This document shows positions 10,133-32,775 of a stretch of 43,070 nt of DNA, in pieces. The notes under the pieces are model-generated. The model saw nothing but the letters and a program-made list of their open reading frames with translations, did not search any database and had not been told where the DNA came from. This DNA comes from Nitrosopumilales archaeon UBA218 (GTDB taxonomy: Archaea; Thermoproteota; Nitrososphaeria; Nitrososphaerales; Nitrosopumilaceae), in contig DAMC01000041.1 in assembly GCA_002499525.1 (NCBI GenBank), forward strand, positions 11,862 through 54,931, written 5' to 3'. The translations under genes and the position numbers were made by a program. Numbering within the stretch: the stretch's first letter is position 1; each line of letters opens with the position of its first letter.

Positions 10133-12061
10133 ATGGGCTTAGCTGGTATAGAACTCGCATTTTTGGTAAAAGAAATATCTGAAAGAACTGCTGGTTACTA
10201 TGTCAACAATATCTATCCGATAAATCAGAATAGTGTTCTTTTCAAGTTACATCATCCAGACAAACCAGATCTATTCTTAGTAATTTCATCTATCGGGATG
10301 TGGTTTACCGGAATTAAAATTGACGCTATTGAAGATAACAAACTGGTGAAAAGATTGCGTGATGATCTTTTACGATTAAAGATTGTCAGAATAGAGCAAA
10401 TAGGAGTAGAACGAATAGCATATCTTACATTTTCTGGATTTGATAAAGAATTTGTATTAATTTGTGAGTTTTTTGGAGATGGAAATATTATGTTATGTAA
10501 TAAAGATCTCAAAGTTCTGGCATTATTGCACTCAATTGCAGTAAGGCACCGAGAGATACGTGTTGGATCGATCTATGCTCCACCACCACAAAAAGGTCTC
10601 AACATCTTTGATATTTCATCAGAAAACTTTACAGAAATAAAATCAATCTCAACACCAATCGCAAAATGGTTTGGGAGAACGTATGGGCTGCCAACTAAAT
10701 ACGCTCAAGAAATACTGAGAATCGCCAACGTTGATTTTGATTTGGTATGTCAAAACATTACTGATCAACAGATAGAGCGGATCATTTTAGCTTCAAAGAC
10801 TCTTACAAATGACATTGTATCTGGTAATCATAATCCAGTAATTGTCAAATCCGATGATGAATTTGACGTATATCCAATCTCCTCCACCATACAAGATACT
10901 ACACAAGAACAGATCCCCAGCTTTATGGAAGGTTTAGACAAAATATTTTCCAATATTATTCTAGATAAAGGAAAGCTAGTAAAATCAGGCTCAATTGATA
11001 AGAAGATTGCCGATCTTCAATCTAAAATTGATGAACAAACTAAAGCGATTTCATTAGTTAAGGAGAAATCTGAAAAGATTTCCAGTGTAGCAAAATCTCT
11101 TTACTCTTTTTCTTCATATGGTGTATCAAGTATACTAGACTCACCAGTTGCTCAGATTCTCAAGGCAAGCAATGCTGAACTTATCAAGGATCGAGGAATT
11201 TTATTTCTTAAAATAGACGATGAGAAAATTCAGATAAATTCGGAGTCATCATTTCCAGCAATCGCTTCAACAATATTTAACGAGGCAAAAAGACAATCAT
11301 CTGCTATCGAATTAATTGAATCTCTTAAAATCAAAAATCTAAAAGAACTGGAAAAACTCAAATCTCAATCACAAGAAACTAAAAAAGCAGTTTTTTTTAC
11401 GGAATTCAAGAAAAAAGAATGGTTTGAAAGATACAGATGGTTCAACACATCTGATGGATTATTAGCCATAGGTGGCCGGGATTCATCATCAAATTCTGCA
11501 ATCATACGAAAACAGCTGACTAAAAATGATAAGGTATTTCATGCGGAGATTTTTGGTTCCCCGTTCTTTATTCTAAAAGATGTACCTGATTCTTTACCAT
11601 TTGATTCCTTAAATGAAGTTGCTCAGGCTACTGTATGCTTTAGTCGAGCTTGGAGAGAAGCAATGTATGGCATGAGTGCATATTGGATTAATCCTGAGCA
11701 AGTAAAAAAAGCAGCCCCTAGCGGACAATTTCTTTCAAGGGGCTCTTTTGTTTTAGAAGGGCATAAAAATTTCATCAAAGCACCTAATCTCAGATTAGCA
11801 GTAGGGGTACAATATCACGATGAGCGATATATCCTTACATGTGGTCCTCCAGAACCAATAAAGAAGAATTGTATTTGTTATGCAATTATTGAGCCAGGCT
11901 TGGATGAAATGACGGATTGTGCAAAAAGAGTGAGAACGGAATTCATAAAGCTTCAAGAAGATATTGCAAAACAGTTTGATATTGACGATTATGTTAGAGT
12001 ATTACCAGCAGGTGAAAGTCACATAGTAGAATCGGGCAATACCAAAGTTGAACCCGCCTAA
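10133..12061 (+). CDS. rqcH: Ribosome quality control protein Rqc2/RqcH (NEMF, NFACT family)
   Basis: NFACT-N (EQIGVERI, EFFGDGNIML), coiled coil, and NFACT-R (WFERYRWF...IGGRDSSSN...FHAEIFGSP...FSRAW). Confidence 0.9.
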   Translation: MGLAGIELAFLVKEISERTAGYYVNNIYPINQNSVLFKLHHPDKPDLFLVISSIGMWFTGIKIDAIEDNKLVKRLRDDLLRLKIVRIEQIGVERIAYLTFSGFDKEFVLICEFFGDGNIMLCNKDLKVLALLHSIAVRHREIRVGSIYAPPPQKGLNIFDISSENFTEIKSISTPIAKWFGRTYGLPTKYAQEILRIANVDFDLVCQNITDQQIERIILASKTLTNDIVSGNHNPVIVKSDDEFDVYPISSTIQDTTQEQIPSFMEGLDKIFSNIILDKGKLVKSGSIDKKIADLQSKIDEQTKAISLVKEKSEKISSVAKSLYSFSSYGVSSILDSPVAQILKASNAELIKDRGILFLKIDDEKIQINSESSFPAIASTIFNEAKRQSSAIELIESLKIKNLKELEKLKSQSQETKKAVFFTEFKKKEWFERYRWFNTSDGLLAIGGRDSSSNSAIIRKQLTKNDKVFHAEIFGSPFFILKDVPDSLPFDSLNEVAQATVCFSRAWREAMYGMSAYWINPEQVKKAAPSGQFLSRGSFVLEGHKNFIKAPNLRLAVGVQYHDERYILTCGPPEPIKKNCICYAIIEPGLDEMTDCAKRVRTEFIKLQEDIAKQFDIDDYVRVLPAGESHIVESGNTKVEPA

Positions 12062-27224: not shown

Positions 27225-28397
27225 CTAGTTGGATTTAGTCTTTGAATTTGATTTTTTATCGGTTGTCGTAGGGTCGTTTTTCTTTAAAGATTCTTGTTTT
27301 TGTTCTGTTGGTGATGGTTCACTTTGAGGTTTTTGCTCATCAGGACTAGTTTTAGTATTTTGAGAGTTTTGTTGTGATGCCAAATATGTCTCAATCTCTT
27401 TGATTATAGAGTCGAGTTTCTTAAGTTGCTTGATTTTATCGTCAGAAGATTCAGGGTCTTTAACTGAGATTAGGATTGATTTTGCCGTGTCAAACTTTGG
27501 TCTAATATTTTCATCAATTTTTGTCTCAACAAGTCCTAATCGAGTTTCTTGTTTGTTGATTTCAGAAAGAATTTTTTGATTCTTTGCATCTATGATATCC
27601 GAGTTAATAAGATAGACTTGTTTGATTTTAATAATTAACTGAGTCGAGTTTCCATTGGAGGCCAGTTCTTCCCTCGCGGTTTGTAGTTTAGAGGTTTGAT
27701 CTTCTGATAATCCTAATTCTTTGGCTTGTAATAGAACCGAATCAATTTTGGCAATATACTTACTTGTGAAAGAGGCTGCTCTCTTATTGGATTGCTCTGC
27801 GACAAGATCCTTGATAGTTGTTTGAAGGTTAACTCCCTCAGCTTTAAGTTCCGTGAATGTTCTATTGAGTGCGACCATGTTTCCGGTTGAGAGATTTGAT
27901 TTTGTAATTTGGAGCAACTTGTCAAATTTACTAAAATCTATTGGAAGTTTATTTTTGGTTGCAACTGATTTGAGAATTCCAATATTTGTTTCAAATCGTT
28001 TTAGTGCATTACCGTAATCAAATTCTGATGATTGTGGATTTGGTTGAACGGATTGAGATGATGTAATTTTTTCTGTAGATGAATCTGTAGCTTGTTCAGA
28101 GAAAAATTGGGTGATCTGTCTGAACGCATCCATAGCTGCCAAAAAGTGTTTTTTAGCAGACAAGGCATCGCCTTTCTTTACTGATTCGGTTAGCTGGTCG
28201 GTTTCTGAATCGCCTAGCGAATAAAGTGATTTAACATCATCCGTGACATAAGACATTTTATCAAGATGTGATTTCACCTGAGTTCTTGCTTGAGTAGCCA
28301 GATTCACAAATGAGTCTAATTTAGAATCAGCAAATGCTGGCACAATAATAAAACCAGCCACCAAGCCAAGTAATGCAATGGATAGTATTACTTTCAT
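27225..28397 (-). CDS. Secreted alpha-helical/coiled-coil hypothetical protein
   Basis: Signal peptide ending in AFA, amphipathic helical body and Q/S/K/P-rich tail; start overlaps the upstream stop (ATGA). Confidence 0.8.
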   Translation of the reverse strand: MKVILSIALLGLVAGFIIVPAFADSKLDSFVNLATQARTQVKSHLDKMSYVTDDVKSLYSLGDSETDQLTESVKKGDALSAKKHFLAAMDAFRQITQFFSEQATDSSTEKITSSQSVQPNPQSSEFDYGNALKRFETNIGILKSVATKNKLPIDFSKFDKLLQITKSNLSTGNMVALNRTFTELKAEGVNLQTTIKDLVAEQSNKRAASFTSKYIAKIDSVLLQAKELGLSEDQTSKLQTAREELASNGNSTQLIIKIKQVYLINSDIIDAKNQKILSEINKQETRLGLVETKIDENIRPKFDTAKSILISVKDPESSDDKIKQLKKLDSIIKEIETYLASQQNSQNTKTSPDEQKPQSEPSPTEQKQESLKKNDPTTTDKKSNSKTKSN

Positions 28398-29614
28398 GCT
28401 AAATCACCCTTTTTTCTAAGTCTGACTAGGTTTTGAAAATCCTTTTTTTCTATCTCTATTACACCCTGTCTCTCTAATCTTTTAACCGCTCTCCACATTG
28501 TAGTTCGTGGTAAAAGGAATTTTTTTCTCAAATCACGCTCAAATGCTTGTCCACCGTTTTTCTCCAAGAAGAGGACTAGCTGTTTGTCATCCTCCCTCAT
28601 TTCTTGAGTGATAATGTCATCTGATTCTGGAGATTCTGTATTGACATTCTCATTTTTATTTAGCAAAGGCGCCATTGTTTTTTTGACTGCATTTTTGGTC
28701 TTTTTTAGAAGAAGTGTCAGTGCAGATACGGCACCACCAATTGCAACAATAGAAGTAGCAATTCCAGCAATGTTATCTTTGAACCAATTTACAGGGTTAT
28801 TTTGGGAATTTACATTGTTTTCTGAAAAATTATTGATTTCTTTTTGTGCAATAGATTTTGCTTCTGAAGCAAGGGTTAGTGCATCATTGTATTTTTTATC
28901 ATCATATGCAATTGCTGCTAAATCTAATTTCTCTTGTGCCAGTTTTACATCAATTTTCTGATTAACGGCTTGCGATATTATTGATTTGGCTTCATTAATT
29001 GCATTTTGGGCGGAAAGTGCTGGACCCGAAGTAGTGAAAAAGTACTCTATCTGATTTTTTCCTTTGAGTAATGAGATTTGTTTATTGTCAATTGAATCAA
29101 TATTATCCGGATTAGTTATGTCGACCACAGTAGAATCATCTGGCATTGTAACAGTATAATCAACCTGAGGATCTACTGCAAAAGTCCAGATTTTACCTTT
29201 TTTTGAAACCAGATCGTAACTATCATAGACAATTGAGACGGAGGAAGCACCAAAAGTCTGAATCGTAAGAGCTTTGTTATCCATCTCAGATGACAAAAGT
29301 TTACCGTCCTCATCCTGGATAACTAGATTATCAATGGTTTTTCCATAAAGTGGAACCTTTAGAACAGGTTCTGATGAATCAGCACCAAGTTGTTGCGATA
29401 CGTGAGTTGTCCCGTCTGCATATATTATAAAATCAAGAGTACGGGTGAATCCATACGTTTGTGTAGGTAGTACTATTGCAAGAACAAGTCCAATAGCCAA
29501 AATAGGTGCCCTGACCATTCTAAAGAAGATATTCGAGATCCTTACAAAAATCATTGCTTCCAGGTTAGGAACGATTTCCTCTTGTGTGCAGAGTACTACC
29601 TTACGGTTATCCAT
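28394..29614 (-). CDS. Membrane-anchored winged-helix protein (exported beta domain, TM helix, cytoplasmic wHTH; COG2512-like)
   Basis: Hydrophobic signal-like segment (ILAIGLVLAIVLP), TM helix IAGIATSIVAIGGAVSALTLLL, and C-terminal EDDKQLVLFLEKNGGQAFERDLRKKFLLPRTTMWRAVKRLERQGVIEI. Alternative start at ATG 29518. Confidence 0.8.
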   Translation of the reverse strand: MDNRKVVLCTQEEIVPNLEAMIFVRISNIFFRMVRAPILAIGLVLAIVLPTQTYGFTRTLDFIIYADGTTHVSQQLGADSSEPVLKVPLYGKTIDNLVIQDEDGKLLSSEMDNKALTIQTFGASSVSIVYDSYDLVSKKGKIWTFAVDPQVDYTVTMPDDSTVVDITNPDNIDSIDNKQISLLKGKNQIEYFFTTSGPALSAQNAINEAKSIISQAVNQKIDVKLAQEKLDLAAIAYDDKKYNDALTLASEAKSIAQKEINNFSENNVNSQNNPVNWFKDNIAGIATSIVAIGGAVSALTLLLKKTKNAVKKTMAPLLNKNENVNTESPESDDIITQEMREDDKQLVLFLEKNGGQAFERDLRKKFLLPRTTMWRAVKRLERQGVIEIEKKDFQNLVRLRKKGDLA

Positions 29615-29616
29615 GT

Positions 29617-29904
29617 CTAATACCTCAAATTTAGTGTTTCAAGAATAGACTGGAATTTACGGAATTCTTGGACAAACTCGATGCCCTTTTCCGTTATTGT
29701 ATAGAGTCTGTTTTTTTCAGTTTTGACGGATTGAACCAGTCCTGCAGAAGAGAGCTTCTCACACTTGTCAATTACAGCATAGTGTGAAAGATTCGCTCTT
29801 CGAGAAATTGCAGAGACTATGGTTCCTTGTCTGCCCCCTTCCATGGTGACATTCAAGATATCTCCCATAATGCCCATTTCGGACCTGTATTGTTGTTTTG
29901 ACAT
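29617..29904 (-). CDS. Stand-alone winged-helix DNA-binding protein (HTH_45/ArnR1-like)
   Basis: YRSEMGIMGDIL...ISRRANLSH...LSSAGLV...YTITEKG pattern typical of archaeal wHTH regulators. Confidence 0.88.
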   Translation of the reverse strand: MSKQQYRSEMGIMGDILNVTMEGGRQGTIVSAISRRANLSHYAVIDKCEKLSSAGLVQSVKTEKNRLYTITEKGIEFVQEFRKFQSILETLNLRY

Positions 29905-29948
29905 GCTAAGTAATAGTTGTCAGTATAGTTTAGGGACATTTTGAAACG

Positions 29949-29975
29949 TCATAGCGGAACGCATAGCGGAACAGG
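29949..29975 (+). repeat. Direct repeat copy 1 (TCATAGCGGAACGCATAGCGGAACAGG)
   Basis: 27 bp identical to 30614-30640; 23-bp core identical to 30212-30234; internal 12-bp tandem unit. Confidence 0.95.
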
Positions 29976-29992
29976 CGTTCTGATGGTTGAAA

Positions 29993-30017
29993 CATCAAAA
30001 AATCGGATTTTTTGATG
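29993..30017. promoter_or_regulatory. Perfect 12-bp inverted repeat, candidate operator
   Basis: CATCAAAAAATC-G-GATTTTTTGATG, located between divergent genes. Confidence 0.5.
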
Positions 30018-30134
30018 CGGGGGAAAGGAAACCAATTCAGAAAAATGGTTTGGAAAATTTTGTTAATTGTGGGATTTTATCTTACTTTATCTTTATTAGT
30101 AATAAAATAGAACATTTGCTATTACAGATATAAT

Positions 30135-30608
30135 ATGTTTGAAAAATTTAAGAAGGCGGAAGAAGCCCTACAGGATGCAGGTATGTTAGAACAAGAAAAG
30201 CCCAAAATTGAAGCGGAACGCATAGCGGAACAGGTCAGTTCTGGTTCTGAGATAGGCATTGCAGACTTGATGAACAAGCGGGCTAAACTTGAGGAGGCGC
30301 TTGATTTCGTTGGATTGATGATAAAGAATCTCAAAGACAAAAGAACCAGACTAGTCAAAGAGATTGAGGATGAGTCTGTTGATATCCAGAACTTGAAGGA
30401 TAAATTGACCAAAGTCAGTGATTATATCGAGGAGGAAGGTAGAGGAATAAGAGACCTCTCAAACAAGCGGGCTTTAGTTGAAAAACAAGCGGATGAGGTT
30501 GGAGCCCTGATTGGCAACCTTAGAAGCAAACTTGCCAGTATTGACAGTGTAGTAGATGGCGAGGAGAACAAGGTCAAATCCATTAAGGAATCAAGGCAAA
30601 AAATATAG
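30135..30608 (+). CDS. Coiled-coil hypothetical protein
   Basis: Heptad-rich, E/K/L-rich 157-aa ORF; contains repeat copy 2. Confidence 0.85.
   Translation: MFEKFKKAEEALQDAGMLEQEKPKIEAERIAEQVSSGSEIGIADLMNKRAKLEEALDFVGLMIKNLKDKRTRLVKEIEDESVDIQNLKDKLTKVSDYIEEEGRGIRDLSNKRALVEKQADEVGALIGNLRSKLASIDSVVDGEENKVKSIKESRQKI
30212..30234 (+). repeat. Direct repeat copy 2 (intragenic; encodes AERIAEQ)
   Basis: AGCGGAACGCATAGCGGAACAGG is an exact match to the core of copies 1 and 3. Confidence 0.95.
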
Positions 30609-30613
30609 TCATT

Positions 30614-30640
30614 TCATAGCGGAACGCATAGCGGAACAGG
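30614..30640 (+). repeat. Direct repeat copy 3
   Basis: 27-bp exact match to copy 1, starting 6 nt after the coiled-coil gene stop, between convergent genes. Confidence 0.95.
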
Positions 30641-30671
30641 TTTTAAGATAATAAAATAGGAAATAGATACT

Positions 30672-31313
30672 TTAGAGGTATCTTGTCGAAGTCGCTGATT
30701 TAGTGCTTACAGGTGTTGATGGAAATTTGTCTCCAACAGACGCCTCAGCCACTGCAGCAGCTTCTTCTAGAATCCTATCGGATTCTTCGTTAGTGCTTTG
30801 GTCCATGCCAAATGCTCCCTCGCCTGAGAAGGATTCTGCCATTAGTCCATTTAGCATCTCTGTCATCATGCCTAATTCATGATCTGCTTCAGGCATAAAT
30901 TTGCCTAATGAAGATTTGAGACTTCTCATTAAGCCGATTGTTGGTGCTATTGTGACTACTGTGTCTCCTAGGTCATGGAATGTTGTTAATCTTAGTTCGA
31001 TTTGTTCTAGTGCCATTCTGCAATTACCTAGCATTTTTGAGACCTTACGGACCTCGGCTAGTTCATTTGCTAAAACTTTGCTAGTCTGAGTATCGTGTTT
31101 TTGGGTTGCTTGCACTATTCTTTGGAATAGATTTTGTTCTCGTTGCTTTAGTTTGGTCAGCATTCCGTCAAGTTTTGAGATTTGGTTTTGTAGGCTTCTT
31201 GTTGCCTGCTCAATTCTTGGCTTTAATGCGCCTTTAGGCTTGAGTGCTTCGCCCAATTTTTCAGAAATACTCGGTGTTGTTGGTTTGGACCAAGAGTTCT
31301 GGAAGTTTGTCAT
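30672..31313 (-). CDS. cdvB: ESCRT-III / Snf7 family protein (short CdvB paralogue)
   Basis: LANELAEVRK...ALEQIELRLTTFHDLGD, EESDRILEEA and FPSTP. Start set at ATG 31313 by alignment with the paralogue at 6031-6681. Confidence 0.9.
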   Translation of the reverse strand: MTNFQNSWSKPTTPSISEKLGEALKPKGALKPRIEQATRSLQNQISKLDGMLTKLKQREQNLFQRIVQATQKHDTQTSKVLANELAEVRKVSKMLGNCRMALEQIELRLTTFHDLGDTVVTIAPTIGLMRSLKSSLGKFMPEADHELGMMTEMLNGLMAESFSGEGAFGMDQSTNEESDRILEEAAAVAEASVGDKFPSTPVSTKSATSTRYL

Positions 31314-31440
31314 GGTAAATTTTATGTAATTCATTGAAATTGCAAGGTGTGAAATCTATTTTACTAAAAGATCTAATGGGTAACTTTGTATTTCACAGCC
31401 AAGGCTGGGATATTATAAAATAAAAAACAATTCGCCTAGT

Positions 31441-31539
31441 TTATTGGGCTAGAATGCTTTGTGGGTGCATCTTCTTTATGTGCGAGTGCACTCCATGAGA
31501 TGATGTGACTGCTTCGCCACATAATGGACATGTTTCCAT
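31441..31539 (-). CDS. 32-aa C2H2 zinc-finger microprotein
   Basis: Below the ORF-track cutoff. METCPLCGEAVTSSHGVHSHIKKMHPQSILAQ has C-x2-C-x12-H-x4-H spacing. Confidence 0.65.
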   Translation of the reverse strand: METCPLCGEAVTSSHGVHSHIKKMHPQSILAQ

Positions 31540-31830
31540 TTTTATAGTAGTCCGTTCTATAAATACTATTTAAGTTTTATGCTTTTAGGATTTTAGGATC
31601 GAAAGATGCTAAATTTTGATTAATTTTTCTGGAGTTTGTATTACCAAAGTTGAAAAATATTTTTCAAAAAATCGAACCGCTGATTTCATATTTGAAAAAA
31701 TATTTTTATTCTGTGCAATTTAAAATTGAAATGAAAAATTGGAAATAATTACTGGTTAAGATATAATTTCGAGCGATCATGTTGAAAAATGAATTCAAAT
31801 CTGTTTTTCATAGATAAATCTTGTGTAATA

Positions 31831-31838
31831 TTTATATA
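31831..31838 (+). promoter_or_regulatory. TATA box of tfb (probably a leaderless transcript)
   Basis: TTTATATA ends about 25 nt before ATG 31864. Confidence 0.55.
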
Positions 31839-31863
31839 GAGAATCTCGAGAAAATTCTTACTT

Positions 31864-32775
31864 ATGACACAAACAGCACGAAATAGTGATCGCTGTCCTC
31901 GTTGCGCAAAAGGTGCAATGTTAACAGACGGTAGCACTGGTGAGATGTTTTGTAACACGTGTGGATTTGTTGCAACAGAACGAGTGGAAGAGGAAGGTCC
32001 AGAGTGGCGTTCTTTCTCAAAAGAAGAGGGAGAGAATCGAACTCGAACTGGTACACCGACTTCACTTGCAATGCATGATATGGGTCTAGCAACAATTATC
32101 GGTCAAGCCGATAAAGACGCATCTGGAAAACCACTGACATCTTCTATGAAGAGCACTATTGAGAGGCTCAGAACTTGGGACTCACGAAGTCAGGTTCATG
32201 AACCAGTAGATAGAAACTTCAGGCAGGCATTTTCGGAGCTCGATAGACTAAAGGACAAGTTAGCACTTTCGGATGCAGTAATAGAAAAAACTGCATACAT
32301 TTACAGAAAGGCTCTCGATAAAGGGCTTGTTCGCGGTCGATCTATTCCAGGGTTGGTCGCTGCTGCACTATATGCCGCATGTAGGAACACTGAAACTCCG
32401 AGAACCTTAACTGACGTGGCAAATGGAATCAATATCAAGCGAAAAGACGTAGCTAGATGCTATAGATTGCTTCTACGAGAACTGGATCTTAAAATGCCAG
32501 TAGTTGATCCAATCAAAGGCGTTGCAAGAATAGCAAGTATTGCGGACTTGTCTGAAAAGACTAAGAGAAAAGCACTTGAATTCTTGAAGGAAGCAAGTAG
32601 AATTGAGGTCTCGGCTGGAAAGGACCCAATGGGTTTAGCTGCTGCAGCATTGTATTTGGCATGTGTGATGCTGGGTGAGAACAAGACTCAAAAAGATATT
32701 GCACAAGCTGCGGGCGTTACAGAAGTCACCATACGAAACAGGTACAAAGGTCTCAAAGAGGCATTAAAGCTCTAA
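31864..32775 (+). CDS. tfb: Transcription initiation factor B
   Basis: Zn ribbon CPRC...CNTCG, B-reader GPEWRSF, and cyclin repeats RGRS...ALYAACR and GKDPMGLAAAALY...VTEVTIRNRYK. Confidence 0.97.
   Translation: MTQTARNSDRCPRCAKGAMLTDGSTGEMFCNTCGFVATERVEEEGPEWRSFSKEEGENRTRTGTPTSLAMHDMGLATIIGQADKDASGKPLTSSMKSTIERLRTWDSRSQVHEPVDRNFRQAFSELDRLKDKLALSDAVIEKTAYIYRKALDKGLVRGRSIPGLVAAALYAACRNTETPRTLTDVANGINIKRKDVARCYRLLLRELDLKMPVVDPIKGVARIASIADLSEKTKRKALEFLKEASRIEVSAGKDPMGLAAAALYLACVMLGENKTQKDIAQAAGVTEVTIRNRYKGLKEALKL

What the first reader, a model, noticed from the sequence alone, without database searches (positions are those of the whole stretch)
29949..30640. Three exact co-oriented copies of a 23-27 bp GC-rich tandem motif before, within and after one gene
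Seen: AGCGGAACGCATAGCGGAACAGG occurs at 29953-29975, 30212-30234 and 30618-30640 (start-to-start 259 and 406 bp), and copies 1 and 3 share 27 bp. Each copy is a head-to-tail dimer of CATAGCGGAAC(G/A) with a 12-bp period. The middle copy is in frame (AERIAEQ) and uses GCG and CGC codons, which look atypical for this AT-rich DNA and imply DNA-level constraint. Copy 3 lies between two stop codons, where a promoter operator makes little sense. Inference: parS-like or iteron-like protein-loading sites, looping operators, or recombination sites. The AGCGGAA core loosely recalls archaeal ORB elements, but there is no cdc6 here.
Basis: seen in the sequence. Interest (0 to 1): 0.8.

Follow-up and report, generated by a model that had tools for sequence, protein, structure and literature searches.

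The report
Conserved operator array in ammonia-oxidising archaea
A short DNA repeat sits at a fixed spot before the same small DNA-binding-protein gene in most genomes examined from a major family of ammonia-oxidising archaea, with extra copies inside and after the neighbouring gene in one genus; it is likely the docking site for a regulator made at this locus, not a replication or recombination signal.

Summary
The three exact 23-bp copies are real, occur nowhere else in the genome and far exceed chance. The organism is Nitrosotenuis-like. Copy 1 is the core of a longer array of YGRAAC half-sites. Its dimer starts 49-50 nt upstream of a 95-aa winged-helix (wHTH) gene in 86 of 89 non-redundant Nitrosopumilaceae loci. 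That gene precedes a membrane-anchored wHTH gene. Motif and both wHTH genes go missing together: 17 of 101 family genomes lack all three. Copies 2 and 3 appear only in Nitrosotenuis-type loci. Copy 2 is constrained at DNA level (Ala codon GCG 31/32 and 24/25, versus 4/214 elsewhere in these genes). It is not an ORB: the real ORBs lie beside cdc6 on another contig. No motor gene is adjacent, and no deletion joints were seen. Best reading: a main operator for the wHTH module plus Nitrosotenuis-specific auxiliary operators, as with Sulfolobus Ss-LrpB. Binding, the binder and the sign of regulation are inferred; 0 of 32 dispersed wHTH paralogues carry the array. An earlier scan note described this gene cassette in another genome, but not the motif.

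The parts
29932..29993 (.). Main half-site array (copy 1 in context): AGGGAC 29932-29937, TGAAAC 29942-29947, the 12-bp-period dimer 29953-29972, an inverted half-site at about 29977-29982 (GTTTCA in most relatives) and TGAAAC 29988-29993; likely main operator of the wHTH module
   Evidence: Column conservation in 86 anchored loci; coordinates; all 89 non-redundant operon loci have 3-6 half-sites 30-100 nt upstream
30212..30234 (+). Copy 2, in frame in the disordered N-terminus of the 157-aa protein; likely auxiliary operator, Nitrosotenuis-type loci only
   Evidence: Synonymous positions fixed; dimer in 25 and at least one unit in 33 of 34 genus-type genes, 0 of 66 others; pLDDT <50 at residues 12-30 and 32-37
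30614..30640 (+). Copy 3, between the convergent stop codons of the coiled-coil gene and cdvB; likely auxiliary operator, labile
   Evidence: Dimer in 11 and at least one unit in 20 of 34 genus-type loci (33 had 40 nt or more downstream), 0 of 66 others
29617..29904 (-). 95-aa winged-helix protein (Pfam HTH_45, Sso10a-like), Nitrosopumilaceae-specific clade; leading candidate binder
   Evidence: PF14947 E 1.3e-10, above cut-off; NF053610 36.8 bits, below its cut-off of 60; wHTH fold; clade 100/100 on a long branch
28394..29614 (-). 406-aa predicted membrane-anchored protein with ectodomain and C-terminal wHTH, 2 nt downstream of the small wHTH gene; second candidate binder
   Evidence: Hydrophobic segments 31-49 and 285-303; weak MarR_2 hit at 345-389; not found in the same 17 genomes
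27225..28397 (-). 390-aa predicted secreted protein, likely third gene of the module
   Evidence: N-terminal hydrophobic segment 3-21; overlaps the stop of the membrane gene; poorly conserved
30135..30608 (+). 157-aa protein with a disordered N-terminus and one 115-residue helix; hosts copy 2
   Evidence: AlphaFold model; no Pfam family; only weak coiled-coil hits
30672..31334 (-). ESCRT-III CdvB1/B2-type paralogue converging on copy 3
   Evidence: Snf7 PF03357; NF041005 E 3e-46, below cut-off

Best explanation
The repeats are likely binding sites for a winged-helix regulator encoded next to them: copy 1 likely serves as the main operator of the small-wHTH / membrane-wHTH / secreted-protein module, and copies 2 and 3 likely serve as auxiliary operators that appear only in Nitrosotenuis-type loci. 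Shown: fixed position, family-wide conservation, joint absence with the module, and synonymous constraint on copy 2. Inferred: several wHTH protomers would load cooperatively on YGRAAC half-sites about one helical turn apart (10-13 bp), just upstream of and partly over the position where the BRE and TATA box of the minus-strand promoter should lie, and so set the module's transcription. The small soluble wHTH is the likelier binder (about 60:25 against the membrane-anchored one; remainder both). In Nitrosotenuis, where the coiled-coil gene usually faces the array directly, the extra sites about 250 and 660 bp away would raise local concentration or loop the DNA and could couple the coiled-coil/cdvB pair to the same switch. 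Activation versus repression is not determined.
For: Dimer at index 51-52 (49-50 nt upstream of the wHTH ATG) in 86 of 89 non-redundant loci, while the distance to the gene on the other side varies from about 150 to over 1000 nt. Mostly one site per genome across 101 family genomes; in the genus 37 of 41 genomes match, reversed-pattern control 0 in all 41. All 17 of 101 genomes without the wHTH orthologue also lack the membrane wHTH and any perfect dimer; 3 of 5 tested keep the coiled-coil gene without the motif. Divergent orthologues (51-76% identity) keep variant arrays of the same half-site: 14 of 15 have 3 or more, versus 0 of 57 other HTH_45 genes. Copy 2 tolerates amino-acid changes (A>V, A>T, R/H/Q) but not synonymous ones. 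Precedent: Ss-LrpB binds three promoter boxes plus two ORF boxes 392 bp away (PMC3597646, passages).
Against: No binding data. 0 of 32 dispersed paralogues of the same wHTH clade, many with near-identical recognition helices, carry 3 or more half-sites; only 2 of 32 have one palindrome. So the array does not travel with duplicated genes, which weakens simple autoregulation. Membrane-wHTH homologues in other families have at most 1 half-site upstream (18 of 19 loci scorable). No further regulon sites in G000. Helical phasing of the copy 1-2 spacing (best period 11.2 bp) is not significant once lineages are collapsed (p 0.26). Promoter modelling could not place the TATA box firmly. Co-occurrence is expected of any cis-element of the operon, whoever binds it, and related genomes are not independent.
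Confidence: 0.65

Rival explanations
1. The array is an operator of the module, but is read by an unlinked factor (another HTH_45 or other regulator, or a TFB paralogue) rather than by the adjacent wHTH proteins.
For: Dispersed paralogues lack the array. HTH_45 proteins are numerous (2-39 matches per genome in 41 genomes). A different HTH_45 subfamily in family f4 has its own GGAAY repeats next to its TATA box.
Against: A global factor should have other targets, but the dimer is confined to this locus. Motif and both wHTH genes are missing together in 17 of 17 cases.
Confidence: 0.13
2. The array is a centromere-like or membrane-tether site: the small wHTH spreads from the iteron-like repeats (as TubR or AspA do) and/or the membrane wHTH anchors this origin-proximal region to the membrane near a CdvB paralogue.
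For: The layout of direct repeats upstream of a small wHTH gene matches tubC/tubR (PMC6009700, passages) and AspA (PMC5120986, passages). TubR is the top but weak sequence hit (E 0.039) and AspA a fold hit. The locus is 22-62 kb from cdc6 in 33 of 33 measurable genomes of 37 searched (distances worked out by hand; genomes chosen for good assembly). Some copies lie inside and after genes, where promoter action is unlikely.
Against: No ParA or TubZ is adjacent; in 5 genomes the ParA-like and tubulin/FtsZ hits lie far away or are fragments. The whole 40-kb block is syntenic near cdc6. The module is missing from 17 of 101 genomes. Fold hits are tied with many MarR and PadR regulators.
Confidence: 0.1
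3. The element acts as RNA, for example repeated protein-binding sites in a leader, antisense RNA or 3' region.
For: Position 8 of the spacer matches between copies 1 and 2 in 21 of 23 loci, and one genome shares a private AG variant in both copies, as complementary pairing or gene conversion could produce.
Against: No Rfam match. The only strong fold near copy 1 is the hairpin at 29993-30017, outside the repeats. The covariation is largely a two-clade split. Inverted half-sites at fixed spacing fit double-stranded DNA recognition.
Confidence: 0.05
4. The copies are recombination or excision sites, or scars of a copying process.
For: Exact co-oriented 23-27 bp copies; copy number varies from 1 to 3 within the genus.
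Against: No joints, deletions or circles in 8 runs (contigs only; rare variants would be dropped). No recombinase nearby. Single copy in most of the family. Gene order is intact.
Confidence: 0.04
5. The sites are degenerate ORBs bound by Cdc6/Orc1 (secondary origin or initiator-controlled promoter).
For: Core similarity AG(C/T)GGAA to the ORB core; a G-run follows copy 1 in many loci.
Against: True ORBs sit beside cdc6 on G000:C92 (10959, 11021) and score 44-45 bits, while the copies score -14 to -20, below more than 9000 genome positions. All 37 genomes searched have cdc6, but 17 of 101 lack the motif.
Confidence: 0.03

Closest known systems
Ss-LrpB autoregulatory operator of Sulfolobus solfataricus (three promoter boxes plus auxiliary Box4/Box5 in the ORF; PMC3597646)
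   Same: Several regularly spaced sites upstream of the regulator's own gene, plus auxiliary sites a few hundred bp away in coding DNA; looping proposed, by analogy with lac O1/O2.
   Different: The candidate binder is an Sso10a-like wHTH, not Lrp. The sites are mostly direct half-site repeats. The auxiliary sites are near-perfect copies in and after the divergent neighbour gene, not weak sites in the regulator's own ORF. Binding has not been shown here.
TubR/tubC (type III partition) and AspA of Sulfolobus plasmid pNOB8
   Same: Small wHTH gene with its repeat or binding site directly upstream; TubR also represses its own operon; weak sequence and fold similarity.
   Different: No adjacent TubZ, ParA or ParB; chromosomal and missing from 17 of 101 family genomes; followed instead by a membrane wHTH and a secreted protein.
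ToxR/TcpP-type membrane-tethered wHTH regulators
   Same: A membrane-anchored wHTH with an outside domain and a partner gene, acting on multiple promoter sites (PMC6733452 passages; PMC10629549 listing and abstract start).
   Different: Archaeal, unrelated wHTH family, with an extra soluble wHTH; homologues of the membrane protein in other families lack the array.
Archaeal ORB elements of oriC
   Same: Loose AG(C/T)GGAA core; a nearby G-run and A/T-rich DNA.
   Different: Not next to cdc6, fails the lineage's own ORB profile, and the real origin is elsewhere.

Membership tests
Autoregulated archaeal TF operator with auxiliary sites (Ss-LrpB-like) | Several regularly spaced sites at fixed distance upstream of the regulator gene | tested here: met
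   86 of 89 loci at fixed offset; 3-6 half-sites in 89 of 89
Autoregulated archaeal TF operator with auxiliary sites (Ss-LrpB-like) | Auxiliary sites in coding DNA a few hundred bp away, under DNA-level constraint | tested here: met
   Copy 2 synonymous positions fixed; genus-restricted
Autoregulated archaeal TF operator with auxiliary sites (Ss-LrpB-like) | The adjacent regulator itself binds the sites | not testable with these tools
   Indirect only: joint absence 17 of 17 for; 0 of 32 paralogues with an array against
Autoregulated archaeal TF operator with auxiliary sites (Ss-LrpB-like) | Helically phased spacing consistent with looping | tested here: inconclusive
   Period 11.2 bp, p 0.027 on 17 unique spacings, p 0.26 on 12 lineage-collapsed values
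Archaeal replication origin (ORB) | Adjacent cdc6/orc1 gene | tested here: not met
   cdc6 on G000:C92; 22-62 kb away in 33 relatives
Archaeal replication origin (ORB) | Match to the lineage's ORB with G-string | tested here: not met
   -14 to -20 bits versus 44-45 for true ORBs
Partition centromere (TubZRC, AspA-ParBA, ParABS) | Repeats or site upstream of a small centromere-binding protein gene | tested here: met
   Layout met; fold is generic wHTH
Partition centromere (TubZRC, AspA-ParBA, ParABS) | Cognate NTPase motor gene in the cassette | tested here: not met
   None among 48 window proteins; ParA-like and tubulin-like hits distant in 5 genomes
Partition centromere (TubZRC, AspA-ParBA, ParABS) | Origin-proximal position specific to the site | tested here: inconclusive
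   Proximal in 33 of 33, but so is the whole syntenic block
Site-specific recombination sites | Recombinase gene nearby | tested here: not met
   None among 48 window proteins scanned
Site-specific recombination sites | Joined or excised forms in sequence data | tested here: inconclusive
   None in 8 runs, but these are contigs, which drop rare variants
Sso10a chromatin protein family (candidate binder) | Score above the curated family cut-off | tested here: inconclusive
   Above Pfam HTH_45 cut-off, below NF053610 cut-off, 36.8 versus 60
Known structured RNA family | Rfam match | tested here: not met
   29000-32000 gave one chance hit below gathering score, outside the repeats

The most novel reading that the evidence does not exclude
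The half-site array and its intragenic copies are a chromosomal anchor: the soluble wHTH nucleates on them and the co-encoded membrane wHTH tethers this origin-proximal region to the membrane beside a coiled-coil / ESCRT-III gene pair, giving ammonia-oxidising archaea a motor-less, centromere-like link between chromosome position and Cdv division.
Probability: 0.08. Interest if true: 0.85.

Novelty: new member of a known kind. Interest (0 to 1): 0.42.

Why it matters
None of my 9 literature searches (an open-access library only) surfaced this element or a binding site for this regulator family in ammonia-oxidising archaea. The element gives a sharply defined regulator-site pair, conserved across most Nitrosopumilaceae examined, that can be tested in vitro without genetics. 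It would be an entry point to an unstudied membrane-sensing module next to a cell-division paralogue. It also shows auxiliary operators arising in one genus by reuse of a disordered protein segment. If the tethering reading held, it would bear on the open question of how these archaea segregate chromosomes.

Tried and rejected
Second genomic sites: near-matches in some Nitrosotenuis genomes (L011) and in genus g26 (L278-L280) fall inside conserved ORFs, and other near-matches are in coding DNA; treated as coding coincidences. Regulon search in G000 with palindrome, direct-repeat and single-unit patterns gave no convincing intergenic site beyond the locus. A relaxed triple-repeat pattern in 67 genomes outside the module-bearing set gave chance-level counts against the reversed control. 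Origin proximity as evidence was rejected because of block synteny. Promoter modelling from G000 upstream regions was too weak to place TATA/BRE or to call activation versus repression; the bacterial promoter scan is not applicable. RNA-library contigs cover the wHTH and cdvB genes; X16 has no cover over 29863-30223 but X15 does, and contigs cannot show starts or strand, so nothing is drawn from them. The ESM Atlas gave only unnamed Nitrososphaerota clusters for the coiled-coil protein. A homodimer prediction for the wHTH was not available, so its dimer geometry is untested. The paper mapping the N. maritimus origin was not held, so I could not check whether it mentions this site. Four of 41 genus genomes lack the motif: in G016 the contig starts at the wHTH gene, and G006, G019 and G024 (56-78% complete) lack the orthologue. 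L219 and L197 were dropped from upstream tallies (no hit or no ORF); 19 of 125 loci were dropped before one search's count for lacking the gene or 130 nt upstream, and 17 as duplicates.

Full report
Observation. The 23-mer is exact at 29953, 30212 and 30618 and the 27-mer at 29949 and 30614. These are the only copies in the 1.01-Mb, 71%-complete assembly, even at 5 mismatches. The longest three-copy exact repeat in 30 shuffles of the window was 11-13 nt, against 23 observed. Single contigs of DNA runs X7, X9 and X13 bridge all three copies; none of the 8 runs laid showed a joint or indel; X13 differs at one spacer base of copy 3. The feature is real.

Setting. The closest named relatives of the coiled-coil protein (85-90% identity) are mostly labelled Candidatus Nitrosotenuis, and more distant ones Nitrosopumilus, Nitrosarchaeum and Nitrosotalea. 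Left of copy 1, on the minus strand, lie three genes: a 95-aa winged-helix gene (Pfam HTH_45 above cut-off; wHTH fold with AF1382, AspA, MarR and Sso10a among near-tied hits), a 406-aa protein with two hydrophobic segments and a C-terminal wHTH, and a 390-aa protein with an N-terminal hydrophobic segment. Right of it lie a 157-aa gene predicted as a disordered N-terminus plus one long helix and a convergent CdvB1/B2-type ESCRT-III gene.

Copy 1 is the ancestral element. Of 125 loci, 106 had the wHTH gene with enough upstream DNA and 89 were non-redundant. In 86 of these the dimer begins 49-50 nt upstream of the wHTH start codon. It is embedded in a longer conserved stretch: AGGRAC, TGAAAC, the two GCGGAAC units and an inverted RTTTCA. 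The other three loci carry variant arrays of the same half-site. The distance to the gene on the other side varies widely, and other genes intervene outside Nitrosotenuis. Among 101 family genomes the dimer is mostly single-copy and the wHTH orthologue is present in 84. All 17 genomes without it also lack the membrane wHTH and have no perfect dimer; their 1-2-mismatch hits are at control level. Three of five such genomes tested keep the coiled-coil gene without the motif. Of 15 divergent or variant orthologue loci, 14 have three or more half-sites 30-100 nt upstream, versus 0 of 57 other HTH_45 genes. The element therefore belongs to the promoter region of the wHTH module.

Copies 2 and 3 are genus-level additions. 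In the genus, 37 of 41 genomes match, with 1-3 copies per genome clustered as at this locus, and the reversed control is zero in all. Among 34 Nitrosotenuis-type coiled-coil genes, copy 2 is a dimer in 25 and at least one unit in 33; copy 3 is a dimer in 11 and at least one unit in 20; none of 66 other genes has a unit at either place. At copy 2 the Ala codons are GCG in 31 of 32 and 24 of 25 and the Glu codons GAA in 34 of 34 and 26 of 26. GCG makes up 4 of 214 Ala codons in the rest of the same genes, and other conserved Ala columns vary freely. Amino-acid changes occur. Two other N-terminal Glu columns are also fixed at GAA, so the Ala result carries the weight; related genomes are not independent. 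The spacing of copies 1 and 2 clusters near 238, 250 and 261 bp (best period 11.2), which is suggestive but not significant after collapsing lineages (p 0.26). A spacer position matches between copies 1 and 2 in 21 of 23 loci, largely along two clades.

What it is not. The true origin signature, two G-string ORBs and an A/T-rich stretch, lies upstream of cdc6 on G000:C92 and in three relatives; on a profile from those 8 ORBs the copies score -14 to -20 bits against 44-45. The locus is 22-62 kb from cdc6 in all 33 measurable genomes of 37 searched (hand-computed), but the surrounding 40-kb block is equally syntenic in the five genomes compared. No ParA, TubZ or recombinase is adjacent. There is no Rfam match.

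Mechanism. Inferred: wHTH protomers load on YGRAAC half-sites about one turn apart, just upstream of and partly over the expected BRE/TATA position of the module's promoter. In G000 TATA-like boxes peak 27-28 nt before ATG, but the model was too weak to place this one. The extra Nitrosotenuis sites would act as auxiliary operators. Evidence against simple autoregulation must be weighed. None of 32 dispersed paralogues of the same clade has the array, and only 2 have one palindrome. Membrane-wHTH homologues in other families have at most one half-site upstream (18 loci). No regulon was found. The binder is thus not identified; I put the operator-of-the-module reading at 0.65. The dimer geometry of the wHTH remains untested.

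Comparison with known systems. It works most like the Ss-LrpB operator, three promoter boxes plus ORF boxes 392 bp away, compared there with lac O2 (PMC3597646, passages read), but the protein family differs. The layout also recalls tubC/TubR (PMC6009700, passages) and AspA (PMC5120986, passages), but the motor gene is missing, so it is not filed as a partition system. ToxR/TcpP are the bacterial analogue for the membrane partner (PMC6733452, passages; others seen as search listings only). PMC3684127 (passages) and PMC10936438 (passages) discuss thaumarchaeal CdvB paralogues; the passages read do not mention this site. PMC4010727 (passages) reports a single origin in N. maritimus. The bioRxiv TFB2 paper (passages) concerns Sulfolobus. 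Nine searches surfaced no description of the motif. The library omits most subscription papers, the primary origin-mapping paper was not held, and I opened no supplements.

Verdict. A real, selected cis-element: a new member of a known kind (multi-site operator with auxiliary sites), directly testable in vitro. Interest 0.42; a membrane-tether or centromere-like role is not excluded (0.08).

Noticed in passing
G000:C92 about 10700-11800 (outside the window); also G107, G124, G136: Likely oriC upstream of cdc6: two G-string ORBs 62 bp apart, an A/T-rich stretch, and a cluster of GTTAAC palindromes around the ORBs that recurs in the relatives viewed; could be sites for a second origin-binding protein. 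A small conserved ORF lies next to it.
   Followed up: partly
L232, L236, L238 (family f4, G044/G076/G062); weaker in L234, L240: A different HTH_45 subfamily has its own GGAAY direct repeats at about 10-bp period directly upstream of a canonical TATA box, mostly followed by a large secreted-type gene: a possible independent case of the same regulatory logic.
   Followed up: partly
L056, L058-L060, L065, L067-L069 (Nitrosopumilus-type loci), about 260-300 nt from the wHTH start: The gene facing the array has a second conserved element: a TATA box followed at once by an imperfect GAACAG-N11-CTGTTC palindrome, a candidate repressor site.
   Followed up: no
window 29993-30023: Perfect 12-bp inverted repeat with a 1-nt loop, followed by a G-run; the G-run recurs about 45 nt beyond copy 1 in many relatives, the perfect hairpin does not obviously recur.
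   Followed up: partly
window 30135-30608: The coiled-coil protein is strongly conserved across the family (47-90% identity), has no Pfam family and usually sits beside the cdvB paralogue: a candidate uncharacterised Cdv-associated factor.
   Followed up: partly
window 30672-32775: The cdvB paralogue is divergent from a TFB paralogue across a 529-bp A-tract-rich spacer; in Sulfolobus a TFB paralogue drives division-gene transcription (bioRxiv 10.64898/2026.09.06.749720, passages).
   Followed up: no
G136, G162, G195, G098, G016 and others: The module's small wHTH has expanded into up to 6 matches per genome in some genera, at dispersed loci without the array.
   Followed up: partly
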